From: a virus
Lineage: Duplodnaviria > Caudoviricetes
IMG/VR virus record: IMGVR_UViG_3300044960_000107
Location: 1-54,151 of that record
Length of the DNA: 54,151 bases
Strand: one strand, 5' to 3'
Under the pieces are notes generated by a model, which worked only from the letters and a program-made list of their open reading frames with translations, was not told where the DNA came from and made no database searches. Both the position numbers and the translations under genes were made by a program. Positions within the stretch are counted from its first letter, which is position 1. Each line of letters begins with the position of its first letter. Positions 16,182 to 21,937 of this stretch are shown here, piece after piece.

Positions 16182-17477
16182 CTATCGGCGGATCAGTTCG
16201 GAGAGCGCCTTGGCGTATCGCTCGCTGTGCCCGTTGCCGTTACCGTTGAGACCGAGCTTCTCGCGGAGGACGTCCTCGAGCGATTCCTCGTCTTGCTCGG
16301 GTTCCTCGGACAGAAGCGGGAGGTCTTCGAGCTCACGAACTTCATTGACGAGGAGGAACTTCTTGTCGATGCCAATGGCGTATGCCTCGTAGCGGGTCTT
16401 CGTGTCGCCACGGAGGAGTGCGGAGACGTTGAACTGTGGATAGATGTCGCGGTCGCCTTCCTTGTTGAACAGCCGCTTCTTGAGCGTCGATTCGATGCGG
16501 ACGAGCCAGGGCCGAAGGCTGTGGACGACGAAGTCGATGGCCTGCTGCTCGACGCTGGCGTAGGAGACGGAGCCGGCCTCGAGGTCGGCGAGCATGTAGG
16601 GCGGGACGCGGAAGATGCGGGCGACTTCGCGGACGCCGAACTTGCGGGTCTCGATGAACTGGGCGTCGCCCGGGGGAATGCCGACGGTCTTGATGTCGGC
16701 GCCGGCCGTGAGGATGCCGAGCAGGTGAGACTTCTTGAGGCCCTTGTGAGCCGAGTCCCAGGCGGCCTTGAACTCCCGCTGCTGCTCGGCGTCCATGACG
16801 CCGGGCCAAGTGACTACGGTGCCGGGTCGAGCGTCGTTCGCGAAGAACCGACCACCGTACTCCTCGGCAGCGATCGCGACACCGAGGGCCTGGCGGGCTA
16901 CCATGATCCGGCTGAGACCGACGTCGCCGCAGGTGCGGAAGCCCTTGAAGTGGATGACCTGATCGGCGGTGAGGCTGTGATCGCGCCCGTTAGGCAGTCT
17001 GGTGATGTAGACGAGCTTGCTGCCGTCGGGGCTGCGGAGCGGCTTGGTACAGGAGGGACTGAGCGGCCAGAGCTCGACGTCGCCGGCCCCGTTGCGGGGG
17101 AAGACGTACCAGTAGGAGTTGCCCCAGAGGGCGACCTGAGAGACGATCATCTCCCACATCTCGAATGAGGTGAGCTCGGGGTTTGGCTCGAGGTTGAGTA
17201 GGTCCCAGCGGGGGTCGTTGCGGAGCTTCTCGCGGCCCTGGTCGGTGCGCTTGTAGATCGGGCAGGGCAGGCCGGCGACGGAGTCGGAGAGGATGCCTAC
17301 CGCGGCAAGCACGGCGGTCATGCGAAGCGACTTCTCAGGGGTGACGCTGATGCCAGCATCGGTCAGGATGGACGTGCCGTCGTCCATCTGCGTCAGCGCG
17401 ATCTTCAGGTCGACGCTGGGGTTCTCGAGCGAATCACGCTTCTCGTCGAGTCGGAGGATGCGGCGCACGAGTCCCAT
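16182..17477 (-). CDS. HK97-family portal protein
   Basis: LWGNSY, VIHFK, DAQFIETRKF, ARIFRVPP, NEVRELEDL. Confidence 0.95.
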   Translation of the reverse strand: MGLVRRILRLDEKRDSLENPSVDLKIALTQMDDGTSILTDAGISVTPEKSLRMTAVLAAVGILSDSVAGLPCPIYKRTDQGREKLRNDPRWDLLNLEPNPELTSFEMWEMIVSQVALWGNSYWYVFPRNGAGDVELWPLSPSCTKPLRSPDGSKLVYITRLPNGRDHSLTADQVIHFKGFRTCGDVGLSRIMVARQALGVAIAAEEYGGRFFANDARPGTVVTWPGVMDAEQQREFKAAWDSAHKGLKKSHLLGILTAGADIKTVGIPPGDAQFIETRKFGVREVARIFRVPPYMLADLEAGSVSYASVEQQAIDFVVHSLRPWLVRIESTLKKRLFNKEGDRDIYPQFNVSALLRGDTKTRYEAYAIGIDKKFLLVNEVRELEDLPLLSEEPEQDEESLEDVLREKLGLNGNGNGHSERYAKALSELIRR

Positions 17478-17501
17478 CGGTGCGCCTATCGGGCGCTGCG
17501 A

Positions 17502-17573
17502 TTCGGGGGCAAGGACTCGAACCCTGATCTCGGCGGCCAGAACGCCGCGTCCTGCCGATTAGACGACCCCCGA
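17502..17573 (-). tRNA. tRNA-Gln (CTG)
   Basis: Full cloverleaf: TCGGGGG/CCCCCGA acceptor with T1:A72, anticodon arm CGGCG-TTCTGGC-CGCCG, T arm CAGGG-TTCGAGT-CCTTG; no encoded CCA. Confidence 0.9.
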
Positions 17574-17574
17574 G

Positions 17575-17664
17575 TGGAGCCGGCGGGAATCGAACCCGCG
17601 TCCCTGTCCGACGCTCGAGTGAAACTGGCCCTCGAACGTCTGACAGGCGCACCTCTGCGGCCCC
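17575..17664 (-). ncRNA. tmRNA-like RNA consisting only of the tRNA-like domain
   Basis: GGGGCCG/CGGCTCC-A acceptor with G3:U70; no D stem; 17-position helix; GAC linker; GCGGG-TTCGATT-CCCGC T arm. Confidence 0.75.
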
Positions 17665-17666
17665 AG

Positions 17667-17736
17667 GTAGCGGGCGAGGACTCGAACCTCCTAGCCGGCG
17701 TATGAGACCGGCCGAACCACCTGGCTCTACCCGCCG
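17667..17736 (-). tRNA. tRNA-Met (CAT), initiator-like but degenerate
   Basis: C1xA72 mismatch, GAGC/GTTC D stem (A11:T24), CTCATAC loop; one T-stem mismatch; lacks the third anticodon-stem G:C. Confidence 0.65.
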
Positions 17737-17751
17737 CCGACGCTGATCGGC

Positions 17752-19446
17752 TCAGGCCATCGGGATGAACTGCGGGACGGCGACGCGCGCATTCGCCTCG
17801 AGCCTGGCGACGCCCATGACGAGCGCGATGGCGAGATCGACGGGCTTGGTGACGTCCTTCTTGGTGAGGCGGAAGCCGCGGCCGGTGTCCTTGGCGACTG
17901 CGGAACGGATATGGGCGCGCAGGACAGGGTCCCCATCGTGAGCAATGACCTGATCGACGATCGCATTGCGGGCCGCCTCGGTAGCTGGGCACATACGGCT
18001 GTCCTGCTGGGGGAACTCGACGACGACCATTCCCTCGGCCTCGAAATCCTGCGCGGACCGCTCAAAGCGCCAGGGGTCGTAGCCGAACTCGAGCATGCGT
18101 CGGTACTTGCGCCGCTCGTTTCGGACGTCGTTTTCGACGAGGGCGAACTCGACCTTCTCGTCGATGAGCACGTGAGCGGGCGGGGGCGGCTTGTTCGGGT
18201 CGATCGGGCGGACACCCCAGGAGTTCGCCTTCACCACGTAACGGTCACGGCCGTCTATTTGTTGACGAGCGATGGTGATGCGCCCGGCGGTGTCGCGCTT
18301 GAGTCCCATGTCGACGGTGATGACGACCTCGGCCTCGGGGTCGATCTCGACGCCAGGGACCGCGCAGGCGTCCCAGGCGGTGATCGGAAGCCATGACTCC
18401 TCGGCCTCAGTCCAGGCGTTTAGCCGGCGGCGGCGGAAGACGAAGACAGGAAAGCGCTCGAAGTCACGGATGATCGTCTCGGCGCCGATCCAGCTCGCTT
18501 CGTTGACCTGTTTGGCGAGCTCAATCGCGCGGGAGTCAAGCGGCTTCTTGTCGATGACGTGGTCGGCGAGCTTCTCGAGGACGAACTCCTCGTCCTTATC
18601 GTCGAGCTCGGGCACGTAGGCGTAGAGGTCCCTGCGGGCCCCGGGGTCTCCAGCGATGACTCTGACTGCTTGCTGGTAGAGCTCGCCGCAGATGGTGTCC
18701 TCGTTGACGCCTGCGTTGGTGATGTTCAGGGTGAAGGGTTGCTCGCGGGCAACGTCACCGGAGGTGAGGACGTCGTAGAGGTCGCGCTTCGGGTGCCGGT
18801 GGAGTTCGTCGATGATGTTCGCGTGCGGGTTGAGCCCTTCGTGGACGCCGGCGTCTGCGGAGAGGACGCGGTAGACGCTGTTCGTTCGCTCGACGACGAT
18901 GGCGTCTCGCAAGACGCGGACGAAGTCAAGTAGCCGCGGTGAGGCGTTGACGGTCTCCCGGGCTTGGTTGAAGACGATCCGGGCCTGGTCCTTTGCGCTC
19001 GCGGCCGAGTAGACCTCGGCGCCCTCCTCGCCGTCGGCGCAGAGAAAGTAGAGCGCGTGCGCGGAGGCGCCGGTCGACTTGCCGGTCTTCTTGGTGAGCT
19101 GGATGTACGCCTCGCGATAGAGGCGGACGCCTGGCTCAGGATCAAGACGCTTGTACTCGCCGGCGAGTCGCTCGTAGAACAGGGCGGGGTCTCGGGCGCA
19201 GGTCTCGAGGTCGTCCTCGTCGAGCTCGATCCAGTAGTCAGAGTCAGTGCGCAGCATCTCCGACTCGATACGGAGCTGCCACGGTTCAAGGTAGAGCGGC
19301 CGCTTTGCCCAGCGGCCTTTCGTCTGGACGATGTATTCGGCGGCGAACAGCGCGAAGTGGGCGCCGCCCGCGGAGAGCATGAGCGCTGGCTCGAGGTCGC
19401 CGGAGCGTGTGCGGGGAACGCCACGGCGGCATGTGAGCGAGCTCAC
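17752..19446 (-). CDS. terL: terminase large subunit
   Basis: KKTGKST Walker A, GAEVYSAA, IIDELH Walker B, VDMG, YDPW, VDLAIA. Confidence 0.95.
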   Translation of the reverse strand: MSSLTCRRGVPRTRSGDLEPALMLSAGGAHFALFAAEYIVQTKGRWAKRPLYLEPWQLRIESEMLRTDSDYWIELDEDDLETCARDPALFYERLAGEYKRLDPEPGVRLYREAYIQLTKKTGKSTGASAHALYFLCADGEEGAEVYSAASAKDQARIVFNQARETVNASPRLLDFVRVLRDAIVVERTNSVYRVLSADAGVHEGLNPHANIIDELHRHPKRDLYDVLTSGDVAREQPFTLNITNAGVNEDTICGELYQQAVRVIAGDPGARRDLYAYVPELDDKDEEFVLEKLADHVIDKKPLDSRAIELAKQVNEASWIGAETIIRDFERFPVFVFRRRRLNAWTEAEESWLPITAWDACAVPGVEIDPEAEVVITVDMGLKRDTAGRITIARQQIDGRDRYVVKANSWGVRPIDPNKPPPPAHVLIDEKVEFALVENDVRNERRKYRRMLEFGYDPWRFERSAQDFEAEGMVVVEFPQQDSRMCPATEAARNAIVDQVIAHDGDPVLRAHIRSAVAKDTGRGFRLTKKDVTKPVDLAIALVMGVARLEANARVAVPQFIPMA

Positions 19447-19943
19447 GTTGCGTCATCGGCGCCAGTGCGCCGCGGGCTCCTTCCGATTCGATCCTGGAGC
19501 TCCTCCTGCATCTTGCGGCCTTCGAGCATGGCGAGGCCGATGCGCGCCCGGGCGACCGGCGTGAGAGCGTAGTGCTCGGCGAAGCGCAGGAACAGGGCGT
19601 GGGCGTTTCTCTCGATCGCAAGCGCGGGGTGCTCGACGATCTGTCCCATCGAGCCGAGGGCGAACATCCCCTCTTGGGCGAGGACACGCCGGGCCTTCTC
19701 GGCTCGCGCCCACTGGGTGCAGAGCGCGATCAGAGCCGGGTAGTCGATGCGGTCGACGAGGTTGACGCGCTCAAGCTCGGCGACGATCGTGTCCCAGAGC
19801 CGATGCCCCTCGGGAGGCACGTCGTCGGGAGGCGCTGGAAGCGAGCCGCGGCCGGCGACGATCACCGGTTCGGGCAGCGGGCGCCGACCGGGGTTGCCCT
19901 CGAGCTTCTTCTGCTCAGTCGGCTTCGGCGGGCGGCCCTTCAT
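19443..19943 (-). CDS. terS: terminase small subunit, P27 family
   Basis: MKGRPPKPT...LEGNPGRRPL; HPAL; LTPVARARI. Confidence 0.93.
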   Translation of the reverse strand: MKGRPPKPTEQKKLEGNPGRRPLPEPVIVAGRGSLPAPPDDVPPEGHRLWDTIVAELERVNLVDRIDYPALIALCTQWARAEKARRVLAQEGMFALGSMGQIVEHPALAIERNAHALFLRFAEHYALTPVARARIGLAMLEGRKMQEELQDRIGRSPRRTGADDAT

Positions 19944-20133
19944 CTCTGGTGAGCTCCCTGAGTCGCTGGTACTGGGCGAGGTTCTCGAGCGCGACCTCGA
20001 GTTTGGCAACGGCGTTCAGGTCGTTGGGCCTGACGCGCTCGCCGTTGCTGATCGCGCGCGCGATGTTCGCCTTGGCGGCGCGCAGGAGCTTCTGCGTCTC
20101 GTCGAGGCGCTTCTTCAGCTCGTCGTCGCTCAT
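19915..20133 (-). CDS. hypothetical protein
   Basis: MSDDELKKRLDETQKLL..., 72 aa. Confidence 0.6.
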   Translation of the reverse strand: MSDDELKKRLDETQKLLRAAKANIARAISNGERVRPNDLNAVAKLEVALENLAQYQRLRELTRDEGPPAEAD

Positions 20134-20149
20134 GCCCTGCCCTTCGGCG

Positions 20150-20191
20150 CATAGACGCTCAGCGCGCACATGCGCGGGTTGGGCACCTATG
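20150..20191. repeat. 42-bp dyad site, copy 3
   Basis: CATAGACGCTC-N20-GGGCACCTATG; includes stop codon of ATPase-GNAT gene. Confidence 0.9.
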
Positions 20192-21371
20192 CGTCGTCGG
20201 CCTTCGGCGGTCGATAGCGGAACGATGTGACGGCGGCGCGGCGCAGGTCGACGAGCGTGCCGTCGGCGAGGGTGCGCTTGCTGCCCTTCGTTGGCATCCA
20301 CTTCTGGGTCGTGCCCTTCTTACGCCGACGCGCCGCGGTCTGCTGACCGTAGGTGCCCTTCTTGCCCCAGGTCATAGTGTTGAAGCCCTGCTTGGTGACC
20401 ATCTCCCAGCGGGGCGAGCGGGCGAGCGCGCGCACGAGCCCAGGGTGCGCTGTGGTGATGTGGGCGCGCTGGCCCTGGTCGGCGAGTGTCTGTCCTGCCC
20501 AGTCGAGCATGACGGTCGCTATGCCGAGGCCCTGATAGTCGGGGAGAACGACGACCCGGTTGATGTAGTAGATGTTCTTCCGGCGCGGGTGCGGGAATCG
20601 GCGCCACGAGAGCCAGGCGACGGGGTCGTCGCCGACGTAGCCGACGTGGCAGTAGGACCCGTTCGGGAGGCTCGAGCTCAGATAGTGGTGCGGAGCAAAG
20701 GTTCGCCAGACTTCGCGCCCGCACGGATAGACCTCGAGGTCAAGGGCTGGTCGTCGTTGAAGACACCTCCAGGTGAACGCGAGTCCGGCCGGCTCGTAAA
20801 TCCAGTCGGGCTGAAGCCAGTCAATGACGTCGTAGTGGCAGGTGACGGCGACGAACTGCTTGTCCGTCTTCCTGATCGCCTTCTGGATCGCGTGCGAGGC
20901 CACCTTGGCGACCTGACGGTCAACGACGCTCGTGAACTCGTCAATGGCGACGAGGTCTTCGGCCTCGGCGATCGCGCGCGCGACGGTAGCTCTGAACTGC
21001 TCTCCGTTGGAGAGGACATGGTGAGGTCGAACCCAGGCGGGCGGCGATGCGAGCCCAACAGTCGAGAGGAGACTCGTGATCGTCTTCGTGTCGAGCTCCT
21101 CCGGGAAGGCGTCGATGATCCCTTTGTCGGTCGGCCAGTCGAAACGTTCGATGAGGCGATCGCCGAAGACCTCGCGCGCGATGGTGCTCTTGCCGCAGCC
21201 GGAAGGGCCGACGATCAGACCGACCTGCCAGGGGCATTCGTCGAGCGGCATTTCGACGTCCCAGGTGAGCTTCGACTGCTCGGAGGGGGGAACGTCGAAC
21301 ATCGACTCGACCTGGATCACGCGCGGGGTGCGCGCGATAGTCGAGATGCGCTCTACATGAACGCTCGGCAC
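20187..21371 (-). CDS. ABC-type ATPase fused to GNAT acetyltransferase (putative DNA modification)
   Basis: GPSGCGKST, LSNGEQFR, IDEFTS; then HHYL and RVVVLPDYQGLGIA acetyl-CoA motif. Confidence 0.88.
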   Translation of the reverse strand: MPSVHVERISTIARTPRVIQVESMFDVPPSEQSKLTWDVEMPLDECPWQVGLIVGPSGCGKSTIAREVFGDRLIERFDWPTDKGIIDAFPEELDTKTITSLLSTVGLASPPAWVRPHHVLSNGEQFRATVARAIAEAEDLVAIDEFTSVVDRQVAKVASHAIQKAIRKTDKQFVAVTCHYDVIDWLQPDWIYEPAGLAFTWRCLQRRPALDLEVYPCGREVWRTFAPHHYLSSSLPNGSYCHVGYVGDDPVAWLSWRRFPHPRRKNIYYINRVVVLPDYQGLGIATVMLDWAGQTLADQGQRAHITTAHPGLVRALARSPRWEMVTKQGFNTMTWGKKGTYGQQTAARRRKKGTTQKWMPTKGSKRTLADGTLVDLRRAAVTSFRYRPPKADDA

Positions 21372-21937
21372 TCGTAGCCGTCCTCGGTCAGGCGCTCGAG
21401 CAGTTCGCGCTGCTCGACCTCGCTGGTGCATTCGACGAGCACGCCGAAGAAACCGGCGACCTCGTCCTCGTCGGCATCCCCCTCGTCGGGCGGGGCAAAC
21501 TCGGCGAGCAGCTTGTTGACCTCCGTCTCGGCGAGCCCGGTCAGGTCGAGGTCGCGACCGGCATCCTGGAGCTCGCGCAGGAGCTCGCTCAGCTCATCGC
21601 GCTCCCACTCGCCGAATGGGGCGTTGTCTCGGATCGCCCACTCAATCGCCTCCTCGTCCGTCATGCCCTCGGGGACGTAGAAGGTCGGAATCGTCTCCCA
21701 CTCGAGCTCGCGAGCGGCGCGTAGGCGCATGTTGCCGGCGATCACGGTGCCGTCCGATCGGGCGATGATCGGCCGCGCGCGCAGCATCTCCGGGACCTGT
21801 TCGATCGAGCGCATGAGCCGATCTAGCGCGTCCTTGCTGATGGTGCGAGGATTGCGCTCCCACTCGTGAAGGTCGCCGATCTTGGCGTCAACGACCTTCA
21901 GCGAGCGGGAGGATGCGGTCTTAGGAGCTGCTGCCAT
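21353..21937 (-). CDS. ParB/Srx-like protein of DNA-modification type
   Basis: NPRTI, RPII, VIAGNMRLRAA, IRDN...GEW. Confidence 0.85.
   Translation of the reverse strand: MAAAPKTASSRSLKVVDAKIGDLHEWERNPRTISKDALDRLMRSIEQVPEMLRARPIIARSDGTVIAGNMRLRAARELEWETIPTFYVPEGMTDEEAIEWAIRDNAPFGEWERDELSELLRELQDAGRDLDLTGLAETEVNKLLAEFAPPDEGDADEDEVAGFFGVLVECTSEVEQRELLERLTEDGYECRAFM

What the first reader, a model, noticed from the sequence alone, without database searches (positions are those of the whole stretch)
17575..17664. Mini-tmRNA: tRNA-like domain with no message domain
Seen: GGGGCCG-CAGAGGTGCG-CCTGTCaGACGTTCGAG-(11-nt loop)-CTCGAGCGTCgGACAGG-GAC-GCGGG-TTCGATT-CCCGC-CGGCTCC-A, 2 nt from tRNA-Met on one side and 1 nt from tRNA-Gln on the other. 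Established: G3:U70 with discriminator A (AlaRS identity), no D stem, a long helix replacing the anticodon arm and a GAC linker into the T arm define the tmRNA tRNA-like domain; normal ssrA adds several hundred nt of pseudoknots and tag ORF, and message-less forms are known from some protist mitochondria. Inference: an alanylatable RNA that sequesters SmpB, rescues stalled ribosomes without adding a degradation tag, or acts as a decoy for anti-tRNA defences.
Basis: partly seen in the sequence, partly recalled or inferred. Interest (0 to 1): 0.82.

Follow-up and report, generated by a model that had tools for sequence, protein, structure and literature searches.

The report
Phage tmRNA stripped to its tRNA-like domain
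A phage carries a 90-base gene for the tRNA-like end of the bacterial ribosome-rescue RNA (tmRNA) without its message part, a rare kind known from mycobacteriophage DS6A, where it is reported to block the host's rescue system, and one that turns out to be common in uncultured viruses.

Summary
Window 17575-17664, minus strand, is a 90-nt tmRNA tRNA-like domain (TLD). It has a 7-bp acceptor stem with G3:U70 and discriminator A, a GG-containing linker with no D stem, one 17-position helix, GAC, and a tmRNA-type T arm. It has no pseudoknots and no tag frame. Rfam's tmRNA model matches it end to end with 274 consensus positions skipped. A covariance model built from 14 other viral mini-tmRNAs, without this one, finds it as the only hit in the window (44.9 bits, E 2e-7).

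The element lies 1 nt from tRNA-Met and 1 nt from tRNA-Gln, between the large terminase and portal genes of a complete 54-kb phage. The phage encodes no SmpB and no integrase.

The kind is not new. Phage DS6A has a "TLD only" tmRNA reported to inhibit E. coli tmRNA (PMC4131195, PMC11915505). What I did not find in print is its breadth: two capped scans of viral contigs gave about 90 distinct examples, with helix covariation and conserved alanine identity elements.

Most likely function: a competitor of host tmRNA for SmpB and stalled ribosomes. Verdict: real, a new member of a known kind, moderate interest.

The parts
17575..17664 (-). TLD-only (message-less) tmRNA gene, 90 nt
   Evidence: Sequence. 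RF00023 end-to-end match with 274 positions skipped. Model R1 built from other viral members: 44.9 bits, E 2e-7, positions 1-79 of 79. Fold z -4.06.
17658..17664 (-). acceptor stem, 5' strand GGGGCCG (G3 of the G3:U70 pair)
   Evidence: Pairs 7 of 7 with 17576-17582.
17648..17657 (-). 10-nt linker CAGAGGTGCG in place of the D arm; it holds the GG doublet
   Evidence: Aligned to the GG of the class consensus by R1. The same GGTGCGCCTG string occurs in L106, L127 and L145.
17603..17647 (-). single long helix (tmRNA P2 equivalent): 17 + 17 nt around an 11-nt loop at 17620-17630
   Evidence: 16 standard pairs plus one A.G mismatch. Present in the MFE and centroid folds. The loop sequence is unique in the window.
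17600..17602 (-). GAC linker into the T arm
   Evidence: GAC directly 5' of the T stem occurs in 33 of 72 unique class members.
17583..17599 (-). T arm GCGGG-TTCGATT-CCCGC
   Evidence: Matches the RF00023 consensus. The 28 nt from GAC to the discriminator are identical to the 3' ends of full-length tmRNA genes in 120 bacterial loci.
17575..17582 (-). acceptor 3' strand CGGCTCC (U70) plus discriminator A. CCA is not fully encoded: the next base is C, then tRNA-Gln begins.
17666..17735 (-). tRNA-Met(cat), 1 nt upstream of the element
   Evidence: ARAGORN. It does not reach Rfam's gathering score. The best clan match there is tRNA-Sec at 31.4 bits.
17502..17573 (-). tRNA-Gln(ctg), 1 nt downstream
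   Evidence: ARAGORN. Rfam tRNA, 54.7 bits.
17752..19446 (-). large terminase gene; ends 16 nt before tRNA-Met
   Evidence: Pfam TerL_ATPase 9.2e-26 and TerL_nuclease 4e-15.
16182..17477 (-). portal gene; starts 24 nt after tRNA-Gln
   Evidence: Pfam Phage_portal 1.5e-93.

Best explanation
This is a genuine phage gene for a tmRNA reduced to its tRNA-like domain.

Inferred processing. It is transcribed with the late head-gene operon as part of a three-gene tRNA cluster (tRNA-Met, mini-tmRNA, tRNA-Gln). It is cut out by the host's tRNA-processing enzymes, completed with CCA, and charged with alanine by host AlaRS through G3:U70 and A73.

Inferred action. It binds host SmpB, and with EF-Tu it may reach stalled ribosomes. 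Because it has no resume codon and no tag frame, it cannot complete trans-translation. The net effect is competition with the host's full-length tmRNA, which lowers or blocks tagging and rescue during late infection.

Shown here: the anatomy, the homology to tmRNA, the phage context, the absence of SmpB and integrase genes in the phage, and membership of a covarying class of viral RNAs.

Taken from print: inhibition of E. coli tmRNA by the DS6A-type molecule.

Inferred: everything about processing, charging and binding for this particular RNA.
For: - Anatomy and homology.
- The phage is complete by CheckV and has only this one tmRNA-like match.
- It has no SmpB, so any SmpB partner must be the host's. 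0 of 5 other phage records with a mini-tmRNA encode SmpB.
- Spacers are 1 nt to the flanking tRNAs. There are no promoter-like sites on either strand, and no terminator-like sites on the minus strand, in 16900-20200. This fits co-transcription and tRNA-type processing.
- Class evidence for a selected structure:
  - In 28 members registered only by their two GAC motifs, the helix is 82% paired in register against 34-50% when slid.
  - On the seed alignment A3 the helix has 5 of 5 pairs with changes on both sides.
  - On 61 distinct sequences fitted to the model, the helix is 88.1% paired.
- In a scan that did not constrain the acceptor stem, 21 of 29 unique elements have a perfect 7-bp acceptor. 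All 21 carry G3:U70, and 29 of 29 have discriminator A.
- Literature, passages read. [quoted passage not shown]
Against: - No expression, processing, charging or binding data exist for this RNA.
- The primary paper (Mao 2009) is not held, so I rely on two later descriptions of it.
- The linker lacks the 5' GAC of the class consensus (UGCGCC instead of UUCGAC). The usual junction next to the helix is therefore altered, and SmpB binding may differ. The window element scores near the low end of the class (44.9 bits against 45-86 for most members).
- According to the cited passage, inhibition did not need charging. Pure SmpB titration therefore does not explain why G3:U70 and A73 are kept.
- One 340-kb phage record carries both a full-length tmRNA (362 nt, 87.8 bits) and a mini form (80 nt, 39.8 bits). 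That is awkward for a simple 'shut down trans-translation' role.
- The host is unknown. It cannot be checked that its SmpB and AlaRS would accept this RNA.
Confidence: 0.5

Rival explanations
1. Tag-free ribosome rescue. Ala-mini-tmRNA with SmpB enters non-stop ribosomes and accepts the nascent chain. The complex is then resolved by a host factor (a release-factor-like hydrolase, drop-off plus peptidyl-tRNA hydrolase, or a second round of rescue). Ribosomes are freed for phage late synthesis without marking the products for proteolysis.
For: - The alanine identity elements are conserved even where the search did not impose them (21 of 21 G3:U70; 29 of 29 A73). That is expected if charging, and so ribosome entry, matters.
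- The element sits in the late head operon, when translation load is highest.
- A full-length and a mini tmRNA coexist in one jumbo phage, suggesting distinct productive roles.
Against: - The only experiment in print for this kind of molecule, as described in PMC4131195 and PMC11915505, reports inhibition, not rescue.
- The phage encodes no RF-1-domain hydrolase and no SmpB.
- No mechanism for release is shown.
Confidence: 0.22
2. Decoy for something other than SmpB. The RNA would act as a sponge or bait for a host nuclease or defence factor that acts on tRNA or tmRNA (for example RNase R or an anticodon-type nuclease).
For: - It sits among phage tRNA genes.
- tRNA and tmRNA fragments bound to an anti-CRISPR protein, and a link to RNase R, are described in PMC11662646 (passages read). 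That is only an analogy.
Against: - Nothing in the window points to such a partner.
- 51 of 72 unique class members have no tRNA gene in the fetched locus.
- The conserved features are those of AlaRS and the tmRNA elbow, not of an anticodon loop.
Confidence: 0.08
3. No function in trans. It would be a decaying remnant of a captured ssrA gene, or a tRNA-shaped processing signal that merely separates the terminase and portal messages.
For: - The window element has no close relative: the best identity to any other member is 64-66 of 90.
- Its linker is degenerate.
- It lies exactly between two ORFs, with 16- and 24-nt gaps around the tRNA cluster.
Against: - All helices are intact (7 of 7, 16 of 17, 5 of 5 pairs). 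A decaying remnant should show broken pairs.
- The class shows compensatory changes and recurs in many unrelated viral contigs.
- The two ordinary tRNAs beside it would already serve as processing signals.
Confidence: 0.08
4. Attachment site (attP) for integration into the host ssrA gene.
For: - The 3' 28 nt are identical to the 3' end of many bacterial tmRNA genes.
- Phages that integrate at tmRNA carry such 3' pieces. Mycobacterium phage Milly has one 90 nt before its integrase gene.
Against: - The phage has no tyrosine integrase and no serine recombinase.
- The 5' acceptor strand and the whole TLD are present, which an attP does not need.
- Only 1 of 117 nearest-neighbour ORFs of 67 class elements is a Phage_integrase.
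Confidence: 0.02

Closest known systems
Mycobacteriophage DS6A 'TLD only' tmRNA (tmRNA Website tmID 11587; 'Phage__Mycobacterium.9'; form 'Standard, no CDS')
   Same: - It is phage-encoded and consists of a complete tRNA-like domain and little else.
- It has the identical acceptor stem GGGGCCG/CGGCTCC, discriminator A, and no complete encoded CCA (both have C after the discriminator).
- It starts the same way, GGGGCCGCA..GGTG.
- Model R1 hits both end to end: DS6A 58.3 bits, window 44.9 bits.
   Different: - DS6A's RNA is 80 nt, with a short helix plus an inner hairpin and the canonical TCGAC linker. The window's is 90 nt, with one uninterrupted 17-position helix and a shorter linker lacking the 5' GAC.
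- The T stems differ (GCGAG against GCGGG).
- DS6A's stands alone after the lysis genes with no flanking tRNA. The window's is packed between two tRNAs in the head operon.
- DS6A has an integrase and is temperate according to PMC10865867 (passage read). This phage has no integrase.
- Overall identity is 64 of 90.
Standard bacterial and phage tmRNA (Rfam RF00023)
   Same: Acceptor stem with G3:U70 and A73, a GG-containing linker without a D stem, helix P2, GAC, and the T arm. The last 28 nt are identical to those of 120 bacterial loci.
   Different: It lacks PK1-PK4, the resume codon and the tag frame: 274 of 374 model positions are absent. Bacterial genes with the same 3' end are 345-392 nt long (100 of 120 loci where a 5' end was found).
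CDS-less organellar tmRNAs (jakobid and other mitochondria, Rfam RF02544; ~65-bp plastid forms of Mallomonadaceae)
   Same: They are tmRNAs reduced to the tRNA-like part with no tag frame (PMC11915505, passage read).
   Different: - Most mitochondrial genes are circularly permuted; this one is in standard order.
- The organellar forms coexist with a dedicated SmpB as the only tmRNA of the compartment. The phage form meets a host that has its own full tmRNA.
- I could not see whether RF02544 scored here, because 4 lower clan matches were hidden.
Engineered TLD fragments used in trans-translation biochemistry
   Same: Minimal acceptor, T arm and helix 2 constructs of similar size. As I recall, they are alanylated and bind SmpB and EF-Tu. 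This is recalled, not from any call.
   Different: They are laboratory constructs. This is a natural gene.

Membership tests
tmRNA (RF00023), standard one-piece | Acceptor stem with G3:U70 and discriminator A73 (AlaRS identity) | tested here: met
   GGGGCCG pairs with CGGCTCC 7 of 7, G3 lies opposite T70, and the next base is A.
tmRNA (RF00023), standard one-piece | tmRNA-type T arm preceded by GAC; no D stem; GG in the linker | tested here: met
   GAC-GCGGG-TTCGATT-CCCGC matches the model consensus. The linker CAGAGGTGCG has GG and no stem partner.
tmRNA (RF00023), standard one-piece | Linker motif UUCGAC, whose GA faces the 3' GGAC at the base of helix 2 | tested here: not met
   The window has UGCGCC where the consensus has UUCGAC. 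Only the 3' GAC is present. The same variant is seen in L106, L127 and L145.
tmRNA (RF00023), standard one-piece | mRNA-like domain with resume codon, tag ORF and stop | tested here: not met
   Only an 11-nt loop lies between the two strands of the helix. 274 model positions are skipped. ARAGORN's tag peptide comes from a call that overruns tRNA-Gln and the portal ORF.
tmRNA (RF00023), standard one-piece | Pseudoknots PK1-PK4 | tested here: not met
   There is no sequence available for them.
tmRNA (RF00023), standard one-piece | Rfam gathering score (47 bits) | tested here: not met
   36.6 bits and 45.2 bits.
Phage TLD-only tmRNA (DS6A type; 'Standard, no CDS') | Complete TLD in standard order, no message domain, encoded by a phage | tested here: met
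Phage TLD-only tmRNA (DS6A type; 'Standard, no CDS') | Recognised by a profile of other members that did not include it | tested here: met
   R1 was built from 14 viral sequences and found a single window hit: 44.9 bits, E 2e-7, positions 1-79 of 79. Control: 74 unrelated phage loci (419,552 bases) gave a best hit of 18 bits, on a tRNA-Ser. Full-length tmRNA 3' ends score 27 bits or less.
Phage TLD-only tmRNA (DS6A type; 'Standard, no CDS') | Inhibits the host's tmRNA; binds SmpB; alanylated | not testable with these tools
   Reported for a DS6A-like molecule in E. coli, as described in PMC4131195 and PMC11915505. The primary paper is not held.
Mitochondrial tmRNA (RF02544) | Match to the family model; permuted gene order | tested here: inconclusive
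   It is not among the 9 rows listed at E up to 10, but 4 lower-scoring clan matches were hidden. The gene order here is standard, not permuted.
Ordinary tRNA-Ala | D arm and anticodon arm with a 7-nt loop | tested here: not met
   ARAGORN calls no tRNA here. There is no Rfam tRNA match at gathering score. The region between the acceptor stem and the T arm is a 10-nt linker plus one 17-position helix.
attP core for integration at ssrA | Only the 3' part of the gene, next to an integrase | tested here: not met
   The full TLD is present. PF00589 and PF00239 find nothing in the phage.

The most novel reading that the evidence does not exclude
TLD-only tmRNAs are a widespread, so far unsurveyed family of phage small RNAs that act on the host's stalled ribosomes as charged molecules. 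Alanyl-mini-tmRNA with host SmpB would enter non-stop ribosomes, add alanine and, having no message, leave a complex that is again 'non-stop'. Phages would thereby either jam rescue or replace degradation tagging with tag-free (or short alanine-tail) release. This would be a general phage strategy for controlling the fate of ribosomes and truncated proteins late in infection. It is independent of SmpB titration alone and distinct from the role of the full-length phage tmRNAs with which it can coexist.
Probability: 0.25. Interest if true: 0.75.

Novelty: new member of a known kind. Interest (0 to 1): 0.5.

Why it matters
Trans-translation is the main ribosome-rescue pathway of bacteria, is essential in several pathogens, and is a drug target. 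A natural, compact RNA that phages use against it, or in place of it, would be a ready-made probe and inhibitor scaffold.

The single instance in this window adds little beyond DS6A. The survey it prompted matters more. It shows that such RNAs are common in uncultured viruses, keep the alanine identity set, covary in their one helix, are mostly stand-alone genes without a phage SmpB, and can sit beside a full-length phage tmRNA. That turns an anecdote in the tmRNA database into a family that can be modelled, searched and tested. It also warns annotators that ARAGORN can stretch such genes into false full-length tmRNAs with invented tag peptides.

Tried and rejected
- **Close relatives of the phage.** megablast of 20 kb against 50,697 phage records found no match. 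Portal-based search of viral contigs gave 74 loci at 44% identity or less. None has a tmRNA-like element and one has a tRNA. Synteny and 'full-length ssrA in relatives' therefore could not be examined at close range.
- **Host assignment.** The large terminase is at most 31% identical to any isolate. The 28-nt 3' end is shared by Burkholderiales, some Actinobacteria, Gemmatimonadota, Bacteroidota and others. It does not name a host.
- **Expression.** No RNA holder was listed among 9 runs.
- **Laying contigs of 4 DNA runs.** This showed only the source-like contig across the whole stretch. It also showed a pile-up of other organisms' contigs on 17572-17603, the conserved tmRNA 3' end. There was no variant copy of the element.
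- **MAFFT alignments A1 and A2.** They mis-registered the helix or the 5' end and were not used for the model. A3 was used instead.
- **Isolates other than DS6A.** blastn with two other mini-tmRNAs found nothing. R1 on 8 other isolate loci gave 26.9 bits or less. These were full-length tmRNA 3' ends (MrMagoo, Rb1, PHB04), short 3' pieces (Tunturi_4, Phass-1, Calle_1), or an ordinary tRNA (Commonplace). Milly, an attP-like 3' piece beside an integrase, gave no match at E up to 1.
- **R1 on three bacterial genomes.** The best score was 36.7 bits on a 54-nt stretch. This was not pursued.
- **Loop complementarity.** The 11-nt loop occurs nowhere else in the window with up to one mismatch.
- **Closed or unavailable sources.** Mao et al. 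2009 is not held. Supplementary tables of PMC11915505, which list the 9 'Standard, no CDS' and 79 phage sequences, could not be seen and may contain further phage TLD-only forms.
- **Search for the term in print.** A search for 'mini-tmRNA', 'tmRNA-like', 'TLD-only' and 'minimal tmRNA' gave 4 papers, none on phage forms. Searches gave only the two Williams-group papers for DS6A.

Full report
**What is there**

- The two ends pair 7 of 7, with G3 opposite U70, and are followed by an unpaired A.
- The middle is one helix of 17 positions (16 standard pairs and one A.G mismatch) capped by an 11-nt loop.
- The T arm and the GAC before it match the tmRNA consensus.
- ARAGORN finds tRNA-Met(cat) at 17666-17735 and tRNA-Gln(ctg) at 17502-17573 on the same strand. 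The three genes are therefore separated by single nucleotides.
- The cluster lies between the large terminase gene (17752-19446) and the portal gene (16182-17477). Small terminase lies upstream; protease and capsid lie downstream.
- No promoter-like site on either strand, and no terminator-like site on the minus strand, was found in 16900-20200. The simplest reading is co-transcription with the late head operon, followed by excision by tRNA-processing enzymes.
- CCA is not fully encoded. After the discriminator comes one C, then tRNA-Gln.

**Is it more than chance?**

- Rfam's tmRNA model aligns its first and last positions to the element and skips 274 consensus positions. It scores 36.6 bits (E 3.4e-13) and 45.2 bits (E 2.2e-18). 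Both are under the gathering score of 47, as expected for a molecule lacking three quarters of the model.
- The fold is 4 standard deviations better than shuffles.
- The strongest test is independent of the element. A covariance model (R1) was built from 14 other viral sequences (alignment A3; model). It finds one match in the whole window, at 17575-17664(-), end to end, 44.9 bits, E 2e-7. It ignores the two neighbouring tRNAs.
- As a control, R1 gave nothing better than 18 bits in 74 unrelated phage loci totalling 419,552 bases. It gave 27 bits or less on the 3' ends of full-length tmRNAs.
- ARAGORN's 'tmRNA*' (17343-17668, with a 21-residue 'tag') overruns tRNA-Gln and the start of the portal ORF. 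I regard the extension and the tag as artefacts.

**Precedent**

The kind is known, though thinly.

- PMC4131195 (passages read) lists 'Mycobacterium phage DS6A (TLD only)' among phages with ssrA. It states that a similar molecule, chargeable or not, strongly inhibits tmRNA, perhaps by titrating SmpB, citing Mao et al. 2009.
- PMC11915505 (passages read) counts 9 'Standard, no CDS' sequences among 97,179. It says the DS6A form inhibits endogenous tmRNA when expressed in E. coli, and describes ~65-bp CDS-less plastid forms and CDS-less mitochondrial tmRNAs.
- Mao 2009 itself is not held, and the supplements were closed.
- I fetched the DS6A gene. It is 80 nt and has the same acceptor stem and the same opening GGGGCCGCA..GGTG. 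It scores 58.3 bits with R1 and is 64 of 90 identical to the window element.

**The class is much larger than the literature I could find suggests**

- A pattern scan of viral contigs that fixed the T arm gave 24 stretches, 8 with a perfectly paired acceptor stem 76-108 nt apart.
- Over all loci then held, 103 candidates had a perfect acceptor and T stem. ARAGORN called 21 of these ordinary tRNAs and 82 remained: 72 unique, median 79 nt, range 61-120. Some of the longest or oddest of these are doubtful.
- R1 found 68 matches at E up to 0.001 in 100 sources.
- A third scan, anchored only on inner motifs and the T arm, gave 34 stretches and 29 unique elements, most of them new.
- Features that the searches did not impose are nevertheless conserved. 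65 of 72 have GG in the linker, 42 of 72 have a GAC in positions 8-29, and 33 of 72 have GAC directly 5' of the T stem.
- The helix covaries:
  - When registered only by the two GAC motifs, 28 members are 82% paired in register against 34-50% when slid by 1-3.
  - On A3 all 5 modelled helix pairs show changes on both sides, and 0 of 500 shuffles reach the observed covariation score.
  - On 61 distinct model-fitted sequences the helix is 88.1% paired. That alignment leans towards the structure.
- In the acceptor-unbiased set, 21 of 29 have a perfect acceptor stem in the expected place and all 21 have G3:U70. The discriminator is A in 29 of 29, and CCA is encoded in 16 of 29. The other 8 had 3-6 of 7 pairs within my search range and were not resolved.

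**Context across the class**

- 12 of 72 unique elements lie within 100 nt of a tRNA gene, and 51 of 72 have no tRNA in the fetched locus. The window's tight tRNA packing is the minority arrangement; most members stand alone, as in DS6A.
- Among 117 nearest-neighbour ORFs of 67 elements, one is a Phage_integrase. No SmpB or RF-1 family appears among the 25 families listed. About nine are head-morphogenesis proteins: prohead proteases, capsids, a portal and Mu F.
- 0 of 5 phage records with a mini form encode SmpB.
- One 340-kb record has both a 362-nt full-length tmRNA and an 80-nt mini form.
- In 120 bacterial loci sharing the window's 28-nt 3' end, the gene is full length (345-392 nt) in the 100 where a 5' end was found. 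No mini form was seen.

**Mechanism**

The phage has no SmpB, no integrase of either kind and no RF-1-domain protein, so the RNA must work with host factors.

The best-supported reading is competition with host tmRNA. The RNA offers SmpB, and when charged EF-Tu and the stalled ribosome, a tRNA-like domain that cannot resume translation. This is what the literature reports for the DS6A-type molecule.

Three points do not fit simple SmpB titration:
- the alanine identity elements are kept across the class;
- the mini form coexists with a full-length tmRNA in one phage;
- this element's linker is degenerate.

I therefore keep tag-free rescue as a serious rival (0.22 against 0.5). Decoy, remnant or processing signal, and attP readings get small weights. 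None of processing, charging or binding was or could be tested here. No RNA run holds the sequence.

**Verdict**

It is a new, somewhat divergent member of a known kind (phage TLD-only tmRNA). The wider result is new as far as my searches reach: at least some 90 distinct viral examples with covariation and conserved alanine identity. That result is what makes the finding worth following.

Noticed in passing
window 17343-17668 (-): ARAGORN reports a 326-nt 'tmRNA*' with a 21-residue tag peptide. The call runs over tRNA-Gln and into the portal ORF. It is a false extension of the 90-nt element, and pipelines that trust it would annotate an invented tag.
   Followed up: yes
window 17666-17735 (-): The tRNA-Met(cat) is called by ARAGORN only. 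It does not reach Rfam's gathering score, and its best clan match is tRNA-Sec at 31.4 bits. By eye its acceptor stem has two G.U pairs and its T stem one mismatch. It may be an atypical tRNA.
   Followed up: partly
window 20187-21431 (-): A 414-aa protein joins an ABC-type ATPase domain to a GNAT acetyltransferase domain. It matches phrog_11143 (unknown function) at 6.6e-104 and lies between a ParB-like gene and the small terminase gene.
   Followed up: partly
L029 (Tunturiibacter phage Tunturi_4, PP885687.1) about 1118-1535: A gene annotated 'RF-1 domain peptide chain release factor' is followed within about 40 nt by a tmRNA-type T arm, 3' acceptor strand and CCA. No matching 5' acceptor strand was seen upstream. 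A release-factor-like gene beside a tmRNA piece may be a rescue module, or a permuted gene.
   Followed up: no
G004 (340,433-base virus record behind L170): C1:309390-309751 and C1:117191-117270: The same jumbo phage carries a full-length tmRNA (87.8 bits) and a TLD-only form (39.8 bits).
   Followed up: no
L106 4155-4233, L127 421-499, L145 9894-9972: Three viral contigs carry an identical 79-nt mini-tmRNA whose linker has the same unusual GGTGCGCCTG string as the window element, in place of GGTTTCGAC.
   Followed up: partly
neighbours of 67 viral mini-tmRNAs (alignment A5): About 9 of 117 nearest ORFs are head-morphogenesis proteins: Peptidase_S78 3, Phage_capsid 2, CLP_protease 2, P22_portal 1, Phage_Mu_F 1. 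This echoes the window's position between the terminase and portal genes. No background rate was computed.
   Followed up: no
window 17572-17603: In contigs of four DNA runs labelled hot-springs or microbial-mat metagenome, this 32-nt stretch is covered at summed depths of 182-2396, against 0-18 around it. Other community members' tmRNA 3' ends match it at 80% or more.
   Followed up: partly
G007:C1:62101-62181 and G008:C1:23775-23854: Some 80-nt viral mini-tmRNAs pass Rfam's tmRNA gathering score (75.3 and 65.1 bits). Rfam-based annotation would label them plain 'tmRNA' without noting that the message part is missing.
   Followed up: no
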